From IMG/VR virus record IMGVR_UViG_2711768046_000001: a stretch of 5,747 nucleotides of DNA; one strand, 5' to 3'. A program made the position numbers and the translations under genes. This stretch comes from a virus. Lineage: Duplodnaviria; Heunggongvirae; Uroviricota; Caudoviricetes. Under the pieces are notes generated by a model. It ran no database searches. It was not told the origin of the DNA and saw only the letters and a program-made list of their open reading frames with translations. Positions 1-5,745 of the stretch are shown in pieces; positions within the stretch are counted from its first letter, which is position 1; each line of letters starts with the position of its first letter.

Positions 1-456
1 TTCTTCGGCAGCGTCAGATGGGTATAAGAGAAGGATCTGAACCAGCAGGCGGACTTCCGACGGATTCCTGTCACCCTTTGAGGTGGTTTCCACCAGTGCC
101 TGTACACCGAAGGTAAAGCGCAGACGGTCGATGTTTGCAGACGTAATGGTGCGGGTGATCGGCGTGTCATATTTCACTTCCGTACCCAGCACCGTCTCGG
201 AGCCGGAGGATTCAAATCCCTCCGGCGGTGTCTGTTCCTGCTCACCGGCCCGGAACACCACCGTGACGCCGGATATATTGGTATTCCCCTCACTGTCCAG
301 CACTGGCGTACTGTTCAGCAGCACGCTTTTTAATCCATCCACCGGACCTTCAATCGGCCCTTCGCTGATGGCATCGATCACACTCAGCAACTGCGTGGAC
401 TTCAGGTTGTCCTTCGCTTCGCGCGGAGTATGCCCCTTACTGCTGCCTTTACCCAT
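1..456 (-). CDS. J: Tail tip / host-specificity protein J-like, N-terminal 152 codons only; continues beyond the window start
   Basis: Manual translation of the reverse complement of 1..456 gives an open frame with no stop, starting at ATG (plus 454-456): MGKGSSKGHTPREAKDNLKSTQLLSVIDAISEGPIEGPVDGLKSVLLNSTPVLDSEGNTNISGVTVVFRAGEQEQTPPEGFESSGSETVLGTEVKYDTPITRTITSANIDRLRFTFGVQALVETTSKGDRNPSEVRLLVQILLLYPSDAAEE. This matches my recollection of the lambda gpJ N-terminus. GGAG lies 8 nt upstream of the ATG. Position immediately downstream of I as in lambda. Absent from the ORF track because it has no in-window stop. Confidence 0.88.
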   Translation of the reverse strand, partial: MGKGSSKGHTPREAKDNLKSTQLLSVIDAISEGPIEGPVDGLKSVLLNSTPVLDSEGNTNISGVTVVFRAGEQEQTPPEGFESSGSETVLGTEVKYDTPITRTITSANIDRLRFTFGVQALVETTSKGDRNPSEVRLLVQILLLYPSDAAEE

Positions 457-478
457 TCCTAACGCTCCATAAACGACA

Positions 479-498
479 AAACCGCCCGGAGGCGGTTT
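479..498 (-). other. Perfect 8-bp inverted repeat with 4-nt loop (aaaccgcc-cgga-ggcggttt) in the I-J intergenic region; possible RNA stem-loop
   Basis: Read directly from the sequence. On the transcribed minus strand the stem is followed by TTTTGTCGTTT and then the J Shine-Dalgarno and ATG. Function not established. Confidence 0.3.
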
Positions 499-516
499 CA
501 CATAAAACGTTTTTCA

Positions 517-1164
517 TCAGCGACCAATCACTACAACCTGACCACCATCCCCTTCGTCTGCCGTGCTGATCTCCTGAGAGACCACCCGCGACCCCACGCG
601 CATTTCACCGTACAGAACGGGCAGAACATTGCCCTGGGCAACCATGTTATCCAGTGAGGAGAAATAGGTGTTCTGTTTGCCGTTATCTGTACTTGCTGCC
701 GTGGGCGTCCTGGCTTTCGGTGCCAGCATCTGCGCCACTCCGCCCAGGATCATACTGGCCCCTGCCGCATACATGCCCGATACAGCCGCGGCCCCCAGCC
801 AGCCAACAGGGTTCCACCATGCCACCGCAATCAGCGCCGCACCCAGCACCGCCTGAAACACACCGCCACTTTTGGCACCCGCCAGACGCGGAACGACGTG
901 GATCACGGCACCATTTGCCAGCGGTTCATTAAGACGGGCAGATAATTCATTTTCACCTGCATCACGCCCGGCAATGCGTACCTGGTACCAGCCGTCGCTC
1001 AGTTTCTGACGAAACGCCGGGATCTGCATGGCCAGCGCCCGGATGGCTTCGGACCCCGTTTTCACTCGAAGGTCGATGCGGCGGCCAAATCGTTGTAAAT
1101 CCCCGTAAAGGCAGATGCGTGCCATGCCCGGTGACGCCAGAGGGAGTGTGTGCGTCGCTGCCAT
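517..1164 (-). CDS. I: Tail assembly protein I-like (215 aa)
   Basis: ORF-track ORF 517..1164 (-). Begins MAATHTLPLASPGMARICLYGDLQRFGRRIDLRV and ends VVSQEISTADEGDGGQVVVIGR, which I recognise as lambda gpI-like. Soluble N-terminal about 100 aa ending in AKSGG, followed by a Gly/Ala-rich hydrophobic segment. Sits between K and J and overlaps the K 3' end out of frame, as in lambda. Upstream GAGAGAGG as possible SD. Confidence 0.9.
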   Translation of the reverse strand: MAATHTLPLASPGMARICLYGDLQRFGRRIDLRVKTGSEAIRALAMQIPAFRQKLSDGWYQVRIAGRDAGENELSARLNEPLANGAVIHVVPRLAGAKSGGVFQAVLGAALIAVAWWNPVGWLGAAAVSGMYAAGASMILGGVAQMLAPKARTPTAASTDNGKQNTYFSSLDNMVAQGNVLPVLYGEMRVGSRVVSQEISTADEGDGGQVVVIGR

Positions 1165-1805
1165 TTGTCGGTATACCTCTCTCGTTTACTCAGTTGTTCA
1201 GGAATATGGTGCAGCAGCTCACCGTCGCCGCAGTAAATGGCGGCATGATTCGGCACCGATGAACCAAAACAGCACAGCAGCACATCGCCCGGTTGTGCTG
1301 ATGACAACGCCACCTGATACAGCCCTGTGGCCTCCAGATTATCCAGATAGAGATTCTGACCGTTACGCCACCAGTCATCCTCACGATGAAAATCCGGCAT
1401 CTCAATCCCCGCCAGATGATAAGCATCCCGGAACAGCGTGTAACAGTCCGTCACCCCGTGCTCAAAGCGCCGCCCGGTGAGATGCGGCACACAGCGGAAC
1501 TTGTGAATCGCCCCCCGGCAGACCAGCCACCACGGCAAATCACTCTGCACCTGCAGCCGCCGGTCAGCCTCACTCAGCCAAGGCAGACCACCGGGATGAC
1601 TGTGGACCAGTGCCACAATCTCACCCTGCATCTCTGCCTGCAGCCAGTCCTCCGGAGCCATCCGGAAATAATCCTCCGGCTCACCGGAAATATTCACGCA
1701 GGGAAAATATCTTTCCCCCTCCGGCGCTCTCACCACGAAGCCGCACGACTCCGCTGGCGCACATCGCCGGGCGTGCGCCAGAATCGCTGATTCTGTCTGT
1801 GTCAT
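1062..1805 (-). CDS. K: Tail assembly protein K-like, MPN/JAMM metalloprotease-like N-terminal domain plus NlpC/P60 (C40 peptidase-like) C-terminal domain; 247 aa if the first ATG is used
   Basis: ORF-track ORF 1062..1805 (-). HSHPGGLPWLSEAD at residues 68-81 fits the JAMM signature HxHx7Sx2D exactly (plus 1563..1604). Downstream, GVTDCYTLFRDAYH supplies a candidate NlpC/P60 catalytic Cys (codon at plus 1443..1445), with later His residues (NHAAIY, LLHHIP). Position between L and I matches lambda. Start is uncertain: an internal Met49 (plus 1659..1661) would give 199 aa. Confidence 0.85.
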   Translation of the reverse strand: MTQTESAILAHARRCAPAESCGFVVRAPEGERYFPCVNISGEPEDYFRMAPEDWLQAEMQGEIVALVHSHPGGLPWLSEADRRLQVQSDLPWWLVCRGAIHKFRCVPHLTGRRFEHGVTDCYTLFRDAYHLAGIEMPDFHREDDWWRNGQNLYLDNLEATGLYQVALSSAQPGDVLLCCFGSSVPNHAAIYCGDGELLHHIPEQLSKRERYTDKWQRRTHSLWRHRAWHASAFTGIYNDLAAASTFE

Positions 1806-1810
1806 GGGAT

Positions 1811-2509
1811 TTACTGCGAAAGTTTGTTAATGGAAAGGAAGCCGCCAAAGTTGCCGACGTTATTGCGGAACTTACAACCGCTCAGGCATTTGCTGCATTT
1901 ATCCTTCGTGATGTCGGACGTTGGCTGGTCATATTCATCCGCGACCGCCGGACCGTGATAACCGCACTCATCGCCGCGATAGGTCCAGGTGCAGGTGTTG
2001 GCCAGCATGATACGTCCCGGAAAAACGGCACCGTCCGTTTCCGTCGGTGTGGACAACACAAAGGAGGCACTGACCGCACTCAGTTCGCTGCACTGCTCGA
2101 TGCGCCAGCGGCTGATCACCTCCTGCTCTGGATCGGCGTCGCTGTTTCCGTTGACGAAGTTCACCGCATCCAGAAAACGGGCGTAAACCTTACGCCTGAC
2201 CACCGTTCCGCCGACCAGACTCTGCAGGTCTTCCGCCATCCCCGTGACCATGCCGTGCAGGTTAGAAACCGTCAGTGTCGGACGGGCAGCACTGCCCTTG
2301 CCGTTCAGTTCAAATCCTGTCCCCTGAATGGGGTATACCTGATACTGCCGCCCCTGCCAGATAACCGGCTCACCTTTTTCGTTCTGCTCATTACAGAAAA
2401 AATAACGTTCACCACCGACCTCTGTCAGATCGATTTCCCAGAGCACCACCTGGGCTGACTGAGTGAGGCGTGTCGTCTCATGATGTGTTTCCTGTGGAAT
2501 ATCCTGCAT
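1811..2509 (-). CDS. L: Minor tail protein L-like (232 aa) with C-terminal cysteine cluster
   Basis: ORF-track ORF 1811..2509 (-). 232 aa, the same length I recall for lambda gpL, and in the same position between M and K. C-terminal Cys residues in ...TCTWTYRGDECGYHG...KDKCSKCLSGCKF... (C173, C182, C205, C208, C212). GAGG sits 5 nt upstream of the ATG, directly after the M stop. Confidence 0.9.
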   Translation of the reverse strand: MQDIPQETHHETTRLTQSAQVVLWEIDLTEVGGERYFFCNEQNEKGEPVIWQGRQYQVYPIQGTGFELNGKGSAARPTLTVSNLHGMVTGMAEDLQSLVGGTVVRRKVYARFLDAVNFVNGNSDADPEQEVISRWRIEQCSELSAVSASFVLSTPTETDGAVFPGRIMLANTCTWTYRGDECGYHGPAVADEYDQPTSDITKDKCSKCLSGCKFRNNVGNFGGFLSINKLSQ

Positions 2510-2518
2510 CAGAGCCTC

Positions 2519-2848
2519 CTATGCCACGACCTGTTCAAAATCTGCCGTTATGGTTACCCACAGCGCCCCCACGCTTGCCGACCATTTACGACAAACCACC
2601 CTGATCGGTTTCCAGTCATAAGGTGGCGTCCACTGAAATGCACGGACGCCACCGTGCCGTTCCAGAAAGGCTTTTAAAGATGGGTGGTCACATTTACGAA
2701 CACGTATCGTCACGCTGTAAGTCGACAACTGGTTATTCAGTCCCGCCGCACGACGCTGTTCATAACCATCGCCCAGCTTCACTGTCACCACTTTCGGCTC
2801 TGATACCACATTCATATCCGGGCGCACTTTCCAGTGAAACGTCTCCAT
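2519..2848 (-). CDS. M: Minor tail protein M-like (109 aa)
   Basis: ORF-track ORF 2519..2848 (-). 109 aa, the same length I recall for lambda gpM. Begins METFHWKVRPDMNVVSEPKVV and ends ITADFEQVVA. Its ATG overlaps the stop of the upstream tape measure gene (TAATG). Placement between H and L matches lambda. Confidence 0.88.
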   Translation of the reverse strand: METFHWKVRPDMNVVSEPKVVTVKLGDGYEQRRAAGLNNQLSTYSVTIRVRKCDHPSLKAFLERHGGVRAFQWTPPYDWKPIRVVCRKWSASVGALWVTITADFEQVVA

Positions 2849-5745
2849 TACCGATATGCTCCACTTAACCGACCACCATCACGGGCCTGCTGTTGCATAA
2901 AGTCCGCTGCCGCTTTTTTCCCGAGGTCATAAACCGCCTTCAGGGCAGCCGGACCTATCTGCCCGTTCGTGCCATCGTTATTGATCTCGATGTTGTACTG
3001 CGGGGAAAACATCGCCATACCTGAACCCCCAATATCCGCCACAACCCCCAGCTTACCGTCAGCACCACGACGCAGTGGCAGAATGGCTTCAGGTCCAGCT
3101 TCCCCCATCACACCCGCGCCTTTTGCAAAAGCAAAAAACGTCGGACGGTTAACCACCGTGCCACTGTAACGACTCAAATCAGCAGACTGATAAATCCCCC
3201 CATTGGCATTCAGGGAAAGGCTGCTGAGATCAAATCCCAGTACACTGCCAATCCCTTTTATCGATTTCATCATGGTTGCCTGCGCCAGGATTTTCGCCAT
3301 ATCTGACAGCACCGAAGAGGTGAAGGATTTGAAGTTGAGTTTGCCGGTAGTGACAAAAGTTGCCAGGCCATTTCCCATGTTGCTGAAGGCTGACGAGAAC
3401 ACCTGTTCTGCTGTTCCTGCCGTATTATCTGCATCCACGGTAAAATCCTGAAATGCACGCAGGACTCCGTTTTTCCAGTTACCCTGCACAACTTCAAGCT
3501 GTTGCCAGTAACGGCGATTCTCATTCAGTTGTCGGTTCAGGCTCTCCGTCAGCGCCTGCTCGGCCTTTCTGTAGTCATCCGTGTTATATGTCCCTTTCTG
3601 CTCACTATCCCGCCTCAACTGCTCCAGCTGTTGCTGGTATTTCTGGCGAAGACTCAGTTGTACCTGATATCGCTGCCGCTGCTGATCACCCATACCCACC
3701 GTGGCGATATCCAGGTCATGTTGCTGGCGCTGAGCGCGCTCTTCTTCAGCCAGTTGACTGGTCAGCTGAATTGTTTTTTTCTTCAGATCGTTGAGTGCCG
3801 TCTGTTTCTGAAGCTCCTGCTGTTTTACATCCAGCAGCATCAGTGCCTGAATCAGTTCATCTTTACGGGCCAGCACACTCTTTTCATCTGCCGTCAGTTT
3901 TTTCCCGTCCAGGTCGCTGATGCGCTGCTGCAGAGCCAGAAGCTGTTTATGCGCTTCTGTCATCTTTTCAGTGGCAATGCCTGCTGACTGTCTTGCAGCA
4001 GCAATCTGTCCTTCCACCTGTGCCTGTTGCTGACTGTACTGCAGCAATAACCGGGTGGCCTCATCATTACGGGTTTCGCGTGTTTTTTTCTTACCGGATG
4101 CCAGGGCTTTCTCGTAACGTTCATTTTCACGTTGTATCGCTGCATCCCTGACAGCCTGATCGGCGTACTGCATGGCATTAATACGCGCAATTTCACGCTG
4201 ATGTCGTGCTGCTTCCGATTCATTCATCCGGTTCAGTGCAGCATTTTCAGCATTACGTCGTTTCTGTTGCTCCTGATAATTCCGCTCTGCCTGCTCTTTT
4301 GCATCCTGCAAATCCTTCTGGCGTTTTTTCTCCTGAAGATCGTTAAGACGCTGCTGATCGTATTCAACCTGAGAAGATGATGCCGTCCAGGGGAGTCTTT
4401 TCGCCCGCGACACTTTCTCCTGTAAAGCGGCAATCTGTTCATCCAGCGAGTCTTCACGACCAATATTCATGGCCGCATCCCAGAAACGACTCCACAAATC
4501 AGACAGATACTTCAGCGTACTGCCAAGCGCATTGAGGTTATTATCAATATCCGCAGTACGCCGACCGGTTTCCTCTGCCAGAGCAGACATGGCTATCCGT
4601 GCAGCATCACTGGACCGTCCCTGATCCCCAAGGACACGTATCTGCTCAAGCTGAGTGGCAGTAAGAAAATGCAGCTCATTGTCCAGAGCCTTCGCGGCAT
4701 TTACAGGATCATCCTTCAGCCGCTTAAACTGACTTATGGTATCGCTGACCGACTGGCCAACCGATCGCTCCATCTGTGCGGCAGCTCTCGCCACCATACC
4801 GATATCGTTTCCACGAAATGCGCCACTCCCCACCACCTGAGCCAGCGCACCGGCTGCAGCATGTTGCGTGATACCATTCCCGGAAATAGCACGACTGAGC
4901 GTCCACAGTTGCCCGGCAGTGACTCCGGCATAGTGCCCCGTCAGCGACAGCTGGCGGTTAAATTCTTCCCCCTCCTTCTGACCGTCATACCAGGCTTTAC
5001 CCAGACCATAGACGGCCGCGGTAATACCGCCAATAACCCCGCCCAGCATCATGCCTTTCGGTGACATCAGTGTGTCTATCCATCCGGCACGGTTAGCCAG
5101 CGTTATCCCGGATCCCCTCAGCGCCCCTAAATTGCCGCGGGCCAGTTCACCTATCAGAACGCCTATCTCCTGGCGGGCCGCTGCACTTTTCAGCCCCAGC
5201 GAATGCGTGGCTTTTCCTGCCTGCTCCATTTTGCGGATATACACTTCTGCAGCACTGCTTACCCCTAGCTGGGCAGCCCTGGCACGAAGCAACTCAGAAG
5301 AAGAAAGATTCTGGCGGGTTGCCTGCTCTTTAAGCTGACGGATAAACGCCACTTTCTGTCGGGTAGACTCTTCCTCAGCCTGCGTAAGAACACGGGTTTT
5401 CGCCGTAACCTCAGAAATCAGCGCCAGATAATCCTGCTGACCAATCCCGCCACTGTTTCTGGCCTGTCGGATCTGCTGCTGAATACGCTGTAATTCCTGC
5501 AGCCCCGCACTGGCCTGTTTCACACTGTCAATCTGACGATAAAACGCAGCAGCTGCTTTATCCTGAGCCTCCGCCAGAGCCATGGCCTGCGCCTGTTCCT
5601 CGCGCATTTTCTGGCTCAGCGCCTCCATGCGCTGGCGGGTTTTCTCCACCTCGCGGGCCATGCGTTCATGAGCCTGTGCGTTCTTCTCCACCGTCTGCGC
5701 ATGGACGGATGCGGCTGTTGCAGCCGAATAAATATCCTCCGGCAT
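2848..5745 (-). CDS. H: Tail length tape measure protein (lambda gpH-like), at least 965 aa; true start may lie beyond the right window edge
   Basis: ORF-track ORF 2848..5745 (-). Long Q/E/R/K-rich heptad-like coiled-coil stretches, a Gly-rich hydrophobic segment (GMMLGGVIGGITAAVYGLGKAWY, residues about 231-253), a motif LWSRFWDAAMNIGREDS and a C-terminus NIEINNDGTNGQIGPAALKAVYD...ARDGGRLSGAYR that I recognise as resembling lambda gpH. Sits immediately upstream of M. The first in-window Met is 2 nt from the window edge, so the N-terminus is not established. Confidence 0.9.
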   Translation of the reverse strand: MPEDIYSAATAASVHAQTVEKNAQAHERMAREVEKTRQRMEALSQKMREEQAQAMALAEAQDKAAAAFYRQIDSVKQASAGLQELQRIQQQIRQARNSGGIGQQDYLALISEVTAKTRVLTQAEEESTRQKVAFIRQLKEQATRQNLSSSELLRARAAQLGVSSAAEVYIRKMEQAGKATHSLGLKSAAARQEIGVLIGELARGNLGALRGSGITLANRAGWIDTLMSPKGMMLGGVIGGITAAVYGLGKAWYDGQKEGEEFNRQLSLTGHYAGVTAGQLWTLSRAISGNGITQHAAAGALAQVVGSGAFRGNDIGMVARAAAQMERSVGQSVSDTISQFKRLKDDPVNAAKALDNELHFLTATQLEQIRVLGDQGRSSDAARIAMSALAEETGRRTADIDNNLNALGSTLKYLSDLWSRFWDAAMNIGREDSLDEQIAALQEKVSRAKRLPWTASSSQVEYDQQRLNDLQEKKRQKDLQDAKEQAERNYQEQQKRRNAENAALNRMNESEAARHQREIARINAMQYADQAVRDAAIQRENERYEKALASGKKKTRETRNDEATRLLLQYSQQQAQVEGQIAAARQSAGIATEKMTEAHKQLLALQQRISDLDGKKLTADEKSVLARKDELIQALMLLDVKQQELQKQTALNDLKKKTIQLTSQLAEEERAQRQQHDLDIATVGMGDQQRQRYQVQLSLRQKYQQQLEQLRRDSEQKGTYNTDDYRKAEQALTESLNRQLNENRRYWQQLEVVQGNWKNGVLRAFQDFTVDADNTAGTAEQVFSSAFSNMGNGLATFVTTGKLNFKSFTSSVLSDMAKILAQATMMKSIKGIGSVLGFDLSSLSLNANGGIYQSADLSRYSGTVVNRPTFFAFAKGAGVMGEAGPEAILPLRRGADGKLGVVADIGGSGMAMFSPQYNIEINNDGTNGQIGPAALKAVYDLGKKAAADFMQQQARDGGRLSGAYR

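What the first reader, a model, noticed from the sequence alone, without database searches (positions are those of the whole stretch)
517..1805. I/K pair looks like a ubiquitin-like / JAB-peptidase module inside the tail-tip operon
K carries an exact JAMM/MPN metalloprotease signature (HSHPGGLPWLSEAD, HxHx7Sx2D) fused to an NlpC/P60-like domain with a candidate catalytic Cys (DCYTLF). The adjacent I protein has a soluble N-terminal domain of about 100 aa that ends in a diglycine (PRLAGAKSGG, GG codons at plus 862..867), followed immediately by a Gly/Ala-rich hydrophobic region. A Ub-like domain ending in GG next to a JAB peptidase is the arrangement seen in prokaryotic ubiquitin-like systems. 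I recall comparative-genomics work proposing this for lambda I and K, but I do not know of biochemical proof of a cleavage or conjugation event. This is the most system-like feature in the window.
Basis: partly seen in the sequence, partly recalled or inferred. Interest (0 to 1): 0.5.

Follow-up and report, generated by a model that had tools for sequence, protein, structure and literature searches.

The report
Lambda tail K/I ubiquitin-like processing pair
This is the well-known K and I tail-tip assembly gene pair of a lambda-like phage, in which K is a deubiquitinase-type protease and I carries a ubiquitin-like domain that K is reported to cut off during tail assembly. The feature is real but already described.

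Summary

- **K (247 aa):** it passes the Pfam thresholds for Prok-JAB and NlpC/P60. Both catalytic sets (E19, H68, H70, S78, D81; C121, H187, H199) are invariant in homologues down to 33% identity. Its model matches JAMM deubiquitinases and NlpC/P60 peptidases.
- **I (215 aa):** residues 14-92 model with high confidence as a beta-grasp fold. The 13 best structural matches are all MoaD, SAMP, ThiS or Urm1 proteins.
- **Module:** the K-I pairing holds in 5 of 5 informative distant loci.

**Correction.** The G100-G101 diglycine is not the conserved end of the ubiquitin-like domain. The family-wide signature is P92-x3-G96-[A/S]97, which aligns with the C-terminal PPxxGG of MoaD. GG dipeptides in I occur no more often than chance predicts.

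**No conjugation.** No E1 or E2 enzyme is encoded here, so this is a processing module, not a conjugation system.

**Novelty.** The module was predicted in 2006 (PMC1779556). A 2025 conference report states that gpK cleaves the gpI ubiquitin-like domain. F-pyocin data show that the N-terminus of the I homologue is removed. Verdict: already known. Still open are the exact cut site and the role of the NlpC/P60 domain.

The parts
1062..1805 (-). Gene K, tail-tip assembly protein (247 aa), a two-domain peptidase
   Evidence: ORF. It is 96% identical to K of re-sequenced lambda. Pfam Prok-JAB plus NLPC_P60. AF2 model has mean pLDDT 84.
1512..1799 (-). K JAB/MPN+ (JAMM) metalloprotease domain, residues 3-98
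1749..1751 (-). K E19, the JAMM catalytic glutamate (E-x-C-G)
   Evidence: Invariant in 25 homologues down to 33% identity and in six loci.
1563..1604 (-). K JAMM zinc motif HSHPGGLPWLSEAD (H68, H70, S78, D81)
   Evidence: all four residues are invariant.
1134..1475 (-). K NlpC/P60 (C40, papain-like) domain, residues 111-224, with C121 (nt 1443-1445), H187 (1245-1247) and H199 (1209-1211)
1062..1164 (-). K/I overlap (103 nt): encodes the K C-terminal helix in one frame and I residues 1-34 in another
   Evidence: The K tail is conserved in distant homologues. Distant loci overlap by 8-13 nt or not at all.
517..1164 (-). Gene I, tail-tip assembly / plug protein precursor (215 aa)
   Evidence: ORF. 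PF06805 Lambda_tail_I, E 5.4e-23. Matches lambda gpI in PDB 8iyk at E 4e-106.
874..1125 (-). I ubiquitin-like beta-grasp domain with its tail, residues 14-97 (fold 14-92, tail R93-A97)
874..891 (-). Conserved end of the ubiquitin-like domain, P92-R-L-A-G96-A97. This is the family-wide signature P-x3-G-[A/S] and the likeliest cleavage region.
   Evidence: P92 is invariant and G96 is at least 90% conserved in 62 representatives. Position 97 is A, S or G in 74 of 82. It aligns with MoaD ...PPVCGG.
862..867 (-).
   Evidence: G100 is kept in 36 of 82 homologues and G101 in 62 of 82. About half of the homologues have no GG here.
724..861 (-). I hydrophobic Gly/Ala-rich helices H1 and H2, residues 102-147
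   Evidence: Kyte-Doolittle profile. AF2 helices 100-117 and 125-147 at low confidence. Predicted to be transmembrane in lambda gpI (PMC11101478).
520..723 (-). I C-terminal structural (plug) domain that stays in the virion, residues 148-215
   Evidence: Nearly identical to the lambda gpI residues modelled in tail-tip cryo-EM structures.
1811..2509 (-). Gene L (context)
   Evidence: PF05100, E 1.5e-98.
2519..2848 (-). Gene M (context)
   Evidence: PF05939, E 1.6e-39.
2848..5745 (-). Gene H, tape measure protein, 5' end cut by the window (context)
35..456 (-). 5' part of gene J, central tail fibre (context)
   Evidence: PF24801 FNIII-A_GpJ. Phage homology ends at nt 35.

Best explanation
K and I are the lambda-type tail-tip assembly proteins.

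I is made as a precursor with five parts: a short leader, a MoaD/SAMP-like ubiquitin-like beta-grasp domain (residues 14-92), a flexible tail ending in the conserved G96-A97, two hydrophobic helices, and a C-terminal plug domain. K is a non-structural, two-headed peptidase with an N-terminal JAMM/MPN+ zinc isopeptidase of the desampylase/deubiquitinase type and a C-terminal NlpC/P60 cysteine peptidase.

Proposed mechanism:

- During assembly of the J-I-L tip complex, the ubiquitin-like domain keeps the hydrophobic precursor soluble and blocks the next assembly step.
- The JAB domain of K then binds the ubiquitin-like domain, threads its C-terminal tail into the zinc site, and cuts the linear peptide bond at or next to G96-A97.
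- The ubiquitin-like domain and K leave. The helices and plug domain stay as the trimeric plug that holds the C-terminus of the tape measure protein.

What is shown and what is inferred:

- Shown here: the domain identities, the intact catalytic residues, the beta-grasp fold (predicted) and the conserved gene pairing.
- Taken from the literature: that cleavage occurs, that K performs it, that K is absent from virions, and that only the C-terminal part of I is present in virions.
- Inferred: that the JAB domain rather than NlpC/P60 is the cutter, and that the site is G96/A97 rather than G101.
For: - **Identity.** The window is 97% identical to phage mEp460, with gene order H-M-L-K-I-J.
- **Conserved pairing.** A K with JAB plus NlpC/P60 lies directly upstream of I in 5 of 5 informative loci, with I at 31-45% identity. 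PHROGs holds K-I and JAB-I fusion families.
- **Cut site.** The P-x3-G-[A/S] signature is conserved and aligns with the C-terminal GG of MoaD. pLDDT falls below 50 at residues 96-100.
- **Literature.** The 2006 prediction (PMC1779556). The Davidson talk: gpK cleaves the gpI ubiquitin-like domain after gpI joins the tip complex (PMC12908700). K is not found in virions by mass spectrometry, and only gpI residues 134/135-223 are modelled (PMC10721106 and PMC12617516). gpI is seen from residue 101 in purified tails (PMC11101478). The N-terminus of the F-pyocin I homologue is present in stalled tips and absent from mature particles, and the K homologue is essential.
Against: - No peer-reviewed biochemical paper on K cleaving I was found in the searchable library. 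The key statement is a conference summary.
- The F-pyocin preprint does not identify the protease. It also notes that E. coli proteases remove the N-terminal region when the protein is expressed alone.
- Nothing here distinguishes the JAB domain from NlpC/P60 as the enzyme that cuts I. Both look catalytically competent.
- The cut site is inferred from conservation and from a weak (E 0.56) profile alignment to MoaD. The 'residue 101 onward' statement comes from one paper's text and could not be checked against coordinates.
- No K-I complex model could be examined.
Confidence: 0.85

Rival explanations
1. The NlpC/P60 cysteine peptidase domain of K, not the JAB domain, removes the ubiquitin-like domain. 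Papain-like folds are the commonest eukaryotic deubiquitinases. On this view the JAB domain serves only to bind the ubiquitin-like domain.
For: C121, H187 and H199 are invariant across distant homologues. Iyer et al. raised this possibility and noted phages whose K has only the NlpC/P60 domain.
Against: The full JAMM catalytic set (E, H-x-H, S, D) is equally invariant, which would be unexpected for a mere binding module. PHROGs contains a JAB-I fusion family without NlpC/P60 (phrog_35166). The conference report attributes the cut to the 'deubiquitinating domain' protein. The closest relatives of the JAB domain are desampylases, which cut MoaD/SAMP-type ubiquitin-like proteins.
Confidence: 0.1
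2. This is a true ubiquitin-like conjugation system. After release, the I ubiquitin-like domain is activated and attached through its C-terminal Gly to a tail or host protein, and K acts as the matching isopeptidase.
For: The fold and the conserved C-terminal glycine are those of MoaD/SAMP-type modifiers. JAB enzymes accompany E1/E2 enzymes in bacterial ubiquitin-like operons.
Against: No E1 or E2 is encoded. The six ORFs of the operon in the window are H, M, L, K, I and J, and the same order is seen in distant loci. Position 97 is usually Ala or Ser rather than Gly. No adduct has been reported in lambda virion mass spectrometry or cryo-EM.
Confidence: 0.03
3. There is no specific processing. 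The I N-terminal domain stays attached but is disordered in virions, or is trimmed non-specifically by host proteases. K acts as a chaperone or as a peptidoglycan hydrolase.
For: The cryo-EM papers simply report the N-terminal domain as unresolved. The F-pyocin I homologue expressed alone loses its N-terminus to E. coli proteases. NlpC/P60 enzymes are typically cell-wall hydrolases.
Against: Both catalytic sets of K are under strict conservation. K is absent from virions, so it cannot act on the cell wall at infection. N-terminal peptides of the F-pyocin I homologue are present in stalled tips and absent from mature particles. There is a direct report of K-dependent cleavage.
Confidence: 0.04

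Closest known systems
Phage lambda gpK / gpI (TAPK / TAPI of Iyer, Burroughs and Aravind 2006)
   Same: Orthologues. K is 96% identical to K of re-sequenced lambda. I matches lambda gpI (PDB 8iyk) at E 4e-106, with the ubiquitin-like and C-terminal domains almost identical. The operon position is the same.
   Different: The hydrophobic linker of I is 8 residues shorter and divergent. The backbone is mEp460-like rather than lambda proper.
Pseudomonas F-pyocin PA0639 / PA0640 (preprint 10.64898/2026.02.24.707460)
   Same: A K homologue is essential for tip assembly but absent from particles. The I homologue forms the lumenal plug, and its N-terminal region is removed on maturation.
   Different: It is a tailocin, not a phage. 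The protease was not assigned there. Sequence identity to this window was not measured here.
Archaeal SAMP / JAMM desampylase pairs (HvJAMM1; PfJAMM1-SAMP2, PDB 5ld9/5lda)
   Different: SAMPs are free modifiers activated by an E1 (UbaA) and attached to lysines. Here the ubiquitin-like domain is a fused N-terminal pro-domain, with no E1. The K score is below the NCBIfam cut-off (28.5 against 130 bits).
Eukaryotic ubiquitin-ribosomal protein fusions (established knowledge, not tested here)
   Same: An N-terminal ubiquitin-like domain is translated in frame with a structural protein, aids its assembly, and is then removed by a deubiquitinase. Functionally this is the closest analogy.
   Different: Different ubiquitin-like clade and different peptidases. 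The resemblance is an analogy, not shared ancestry of the arrangement.
Bacterial ubiquitin-like conjugation operons (Bil; CBASS Cap2/Cap3; E1-E2-JAB operons)
   Different: Those systems need E1 and E2 enzymes and form isopeptide conjugates. None is encoded here.

Membership tests
JAMM/MPN+ metalloprotease (Pfam Prok-JAB PF14464) | Profile match above the curated threshold | tested here: met
   E 3.8e-14, 53 bits against a cut-off of 25, residues 3-98.
JAMM/MPN+ metalloprotease (Pfam Prok-JAB PF14464) | Catalytic set: upstream Glu plus H-x-H-x7-S-x2-D | tested here: met
   E19, H68, H70, S78 and D81 are present and invariant in 25 homologues and six loci.
JAMM/MPN+ metalloprotease (Pfam Prok-JAB PF14464) | MPN fold | tested here: met
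JAMM/MPN+ metalloprotease (Pfam Prok-JAB PF14464) | Zinc-dependent (iso)peptidase activity on the C-terminus of a ubiquitin-like protein | not testable with these tools
   Only a conference summary reports it for lambda gpK.
NlpC/P60 (C40) papain-like peptidase (PF00877) | Profile match above the curated threshold | tested here: met
   E 1.1e-12, 48.3 bits against a cut-off of 23, residues 111-224.
NlpC/P60 (C40) papain-like peptidase (PF00877) | Cys-His-His (or polar) catalytic triad | tested here: met
NlpC/P60 (C40) papain-like peptidase (PF00877) | Known substrate (peptidoglycan stem peptide or another) | not testable with these tools
   The substrate is unknown. K is absent from virions.
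ThiS/MoaD/SAMP-type ubiquitin-like beta-grasp (Pfam Lambda_tail_I PF06805) | Profile match to the I family | tested here: met
   E 5.4e-23, 81.7 bits against a cut-off of 23.8, residues 14-97.
ThiS/MoaD/SAMP-type ubiquitin-like beta-grasp (Pfam Lambda_tail_I PF06805) | Beta-grasp fold | tested here: met
ThiS/MoaD/SAMP-type ubiquitin-like beta-grasp (Pfam Lambda_tail_I PF06805) | Conserved C-terminal glycine or diglycine on a flexible tail | tested here: met
G96 is at least 90% conserved and followed by A, S or G. It aligns with the penultimate Gly of MoaD (weak E 0.56).
ThiS/MoaD/SAMP-type ubiquitin-like beta-grasp (Pfam Lambda_tail_I PF06805) | Significant sequence similarity to ThiS or MoaD themselves | tested here: inconclusive
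   A profile of 45 ubiquitin-like domains reaches H. pylori MoaD only at E 0.56. Iyer et al. report E 1e-3 with PSI-BLAST.
Prokaryotic ubiquitin-like conjugation system (E1/E2/JAB operons, Bil, Cap2/Cap3) | E1-like adenylating enzyme (ThiF/MoeB fold) encoded with the ubiquitin-like protein | tested here: not met
   All operon ORFs in the window are H, M, L, K, I and J. The order M-L-K-I-J is the same in five distant loci. The rest of the phage genome was not scanned here.
Prokaryotic ubiquitin-like conjugation system (E1/E2/JAB operons, Bil, Cap2/Cap3) | Free ubiquitin-like protein whose C-terminus forms an isopeptide bond to a target | not testable with these tools
   The ubiquitin-like domain is an N-terminal fusion. 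No adduct is reported in the virion studies read.

The most novel reading that the evidence does not exclude
K may be a dual maturation protease. On this reading the JAB domain removes the I ubiquitin-like domain at G96/A97. The strictly conserved but unassigned NlpC/P60 Cys-His-His site makes a second cut in the nascent tail. [quoted passage not shown] A more remote variant is that the deubiquitinase-like head of K also strips host Bil-type ubiquitin-like adducts from the central fibre J.
Probability: 0.1. Interest if true: 0.6.

Novelty: already known. Interest (0 to 1): 0.27.

Why it matters
The pair is a clean prokaryotic and viral example of a ubiquitin-like domain used as a removable assembly pro-domain and policed by a deubiquitinase-type enzyme. 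That is relevant to how siphophage and tailocin tail tips are built in order, and to the evolutionary roots of ubiquitin signalling. For this window it is only a re-sighting of a described lambda feature.

The small additions here are:

- Family-wide conservation points to G96-[A/S]97, not the lambda-specific GG, as the end of the ubiquitin-like domain.
- Both peptidase sites of K are invariant, so the NlpC/P60 domain still needs a substrate.
- Reference annotations hide the module. Lambda K is given as 199 aa because of a missing base, and I start codons are often called inside the ubiquitin-like domain.

Tried and rejected
- **The search for related loci with I alignments** of 62 and 11 sequences failed because no stretch was conserved enough. 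I used the look-up of encoding contigs on individual distant homologues instead.
I re-ran it with database homologues only.
- **A K-I complex model** (for example of the natural fusion P0157) was considered as a way to see which glycine reaches the zinc site.
- **Natural I variants without the ubiquitin-like domain** were sought, to test whether loss of that domain goes with loss of JAB. The candidates (P0276-P0291) turned out to be deletion chimeras that join capsid, L, H or other N-termini to the I C-terminus in defective prophages. They are uninformative.
- **K-I fusion ORFs in the protein database** (P0157, P0214 and others) are single-member clusters created by a frame change at the CACACAC run in the overlap or by other indels. 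I treated them as errors or pseudogenes, not as evidence of programmed frameshifting.
- **P0366**, a 2783-aa product with 19 weak repeats matching I residues 10-45, lies in a eukaryote-like assembly. I did not pursue it.
- **Casjens and Hendrix 2015** (PMC4424060) is not held in the library. The original 8IYK structure paper was also not found.

Full report
**What the window is.** The 5747-nt window matches lambda-like siphophages over nt 35-5731. The best matches are mEp460-type phages at 97% identity. All real genes are on the minus strand, in the classical order:

- H (2848-5745, cut at its 5' end)
- M (2519-2848)
- L (1811-2509)
- K (1062-1805)
- I (517-1164)
- the start of J (456 downward)

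Pfam confirms L, M and J.

- K residues 68-81 are HSHPGGLPWLSEAD (H68, H70, S78, D81).
- C121 sits in DCYTLF.
- I residues 92-101 are PRLAGAKSGG, with the G100-G101 codons at nt 862-867.
- A Gly/Ala-rich hydrophobic stretch follows.

The JAMM pattern arises in only 0.25% of shuffles of K. A GG dipeptide in the Gly-rich I protein is fully expected by chance: 3 are observed and 3.0 expected. The diglycine carries no weight on its own.

**K.** The evidence that K is a two-domain peptidase is as follows.

- K passes the curated Pfam thresholds for both Prok-JAB (residues 3-98, E 3.8e-14) and NlpC/P60 (residues 111-224, E 1.1e-12).
- Its best NCBIfam hit is an archaeal desampylase, below that family's cut-off.
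- In an alignment of 25 sequences, including K homologues of 33-43% identity taken from distant loci, E19, H68, H70, S78, D81 and C121, H187, H199 are all invariant.
- No K homologue has a solved structure.

**I.** The evidence for the domain layout of I is as follows.

- Pfam Lambda_tail_I covers residues 14-97.
- With an alignment of 62 representatives at 30-58% identity, AF2 gives pLDDT 88-95 for residues 14-92. The secondary-structure order is that of a beta-grasp. Confidence collapses at residues 96-100, and two low-confidence helices follow at 100-117 and 125-147.
- Residues 1-13 are disordered, and distant homologues begin at the position equivalent to M14.

**Where the ubiquitin-like domain ends.** Four lines of evidence bear on this.

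- Across 82 and 62 family representatives, the strongly conserved positions are P92 (81 of 82; invariant in the 62-sequence set) and G96 (78 of 82). Position 97 is A, S or G in 74 of 82. G108 is also conserved (78 of 82).
- G100 is kept in only 36 of 82 and G101 in 62 of 82. About half of the homologues have no GG at all after G96, for example PRVAGSGRFGQ, PEISGAGKIGQ and VPRVAGAAKNPTV.
- Ge and Wang (PMC11101478) state that gpI is resolved from residue 101 onward in closed lambda tails. That is hard to reconcile with a cut after G101.

I therefore place the likely scissile bond at or next to G96-A97 (about 55-60%), with G101 as the alternative.

**Is it a module?** K with JAB plus NlpC/P60 lies immediately upstream of I in all five informative loci. 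These loci were recovered from I homologues of 31-45% identity and show M-L-K-I-J order. PHROGs contains a K-I fusion family and a JAB-I fusion family. No E1 or E2 is encoded in the operon. It is therefore a processing pair, not a conjugation system.

**What is already known.**

- Iyer, Burroughs and Aravind (2006, PMC1779556) described exactly this: TAPI with a ThiS/MoaD-like ubiquitin-like domain and a conserved C-terminal glycine, and TAPK with JAB plus NlpC/P60. They predicted that the JAB domain releases the ubiquitin-like domain.
- A report of the October 2025 phage conference (PMC12908700) summarises work from A. Davidson's group. It states that gpK cleaves the gpI ubiquitin-like domain from the structural domain, and only after gpI has joined the tip complex, which enforces stepwise assembly.
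- Cryo-EM and mass spectrometry show K absent from virions and only the C-terminal part of gpI present, as a trimeric plug holding the C-terminus of gpH (PMC10721106, PMC12617516).
- In the homologous F-pyocin, the N-terminus of the I homologue is detected in stalled tips but not in mature particles, and the K homologue is essential.

**Mechanism proposed.** The ubiquitin-like domain acts as a removable pro-domain that solubilises and gates the hydrophobic plug protein. The JAMM site of K cuts the linear bond at the tail of that domain once I is docked on J and L. K and the ubiquitin-like domain then leave.

- Shown here: the domains, the catalytic residues, the predicted folds and the conserved pairing.
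- Taken from the literature: the cleavage and its timing.
- Inferred: which K domain cuts, and the exact bond.
- Open: the role of the invariant NlpC/P60 site. One untested possibility is the unexplained cleavage of gpH to gpH*.

**Verdict.** The feature is already known, so interest is low to moderate.

Noticed in passing
window 1-34: The first ~32 nt of the window are the reverse complement of the Nextera/Tn5 read-2 adapter (28 of 30 matching CTGTCTCTTATACACATCTGACGCTGCCGACGA). Phage homology covers only nt 35-5731. The contig end is therefore an adapter remnant, and the last ~11 codons of the J fragment are artefactual.
   Followed up: yes
L001 (lambda NC_001416) 1120-1300; window 1640-1815: The 1982 lambda reference sequence (J02459/NC_001416) lacks one base in the 5' part of K relative to this window and to independently re-sequenced lambdas and close relatives, which have 232 rather than 231 nt. 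This splits the ORF. K is therefore annotated as 199 aa from an internal Met and loses the JAMM glutamate and most of the Pfam JAB signal. Re-sequenced lambda PV340536 has the 247-aa K.
   Followed up: yes
window 1062-1164; L002 5167-5715; L008 2275-2847: The start of gene I is annotated inconsistently. It is given as M1 (215 or 223 aa; used in PDB entries and lambda RefSeq NC_001416), as M14 (about 200 aa), or as the GTG at V34 that overlaps the K stop (182 or 190 aa in mEp460 RefSeq and in PV340536). The V34 start would delete strands 1-2 of the beta-grasp, which are conserved family-wide, so it is very probably wrong.
   Followed up: partly
window 1062-1164: K and I overlap by 103 nt in different frames (64 nt if I starts at M14). 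Distant homologues overlap by 8-13 nt or are separated by 4-94 nt. The K C-terminal helix encoded in the overlap is conserved in distant K proteins. Rare database K-I fusion ORFs arise from a frame change at the CACACAC run at the I start.
   Followed up: partly
window ~470-497, minus strand (I-J intergenic spacer): A strong GC-rich hairpin (AAACCGCC-UCCG-GGCGGUUU) is followed by a U-rich run. The RNA fold of 455-520 is -23.7 kcal/mol with z -3.5. It looks like a terminator or attenuator inside the late operon, between I and J. The simple terminator scan did not list it.
   Followed up: partly
proteins P0269, P0314, P0323, P0336; loci L009 2087-3385 and L010 2985-4112: Some distant I homologues are 360-430 aa long, with a C-terminal extension of about 170-230 residues beyond the plug domain and no Pfam annotation. 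They still sit between a JAB plus NlpC/P60 K and J.
   Followed up: no
proteins P0276-P0291 (database hits to I residues 126/131-215): Many E. coli entries join the I C-terminal plug domain to unrelated N-termini, some resembling other phage structural proteins by eye. They look like deletion scars of defective lambdoid prophages rather than natural variants lacking the ubiquitin-like domain.
   Followed up: partly
L007 3001-13939 (protein P0366): A 2783-aa predicted product in a eukaryote-like assembly (its neighbour carries zf-AD/C2H2 domains) shows 19 weak stretches similar to I residues 10-45. It is probably a repeat or composition effect.
   Followed up: no
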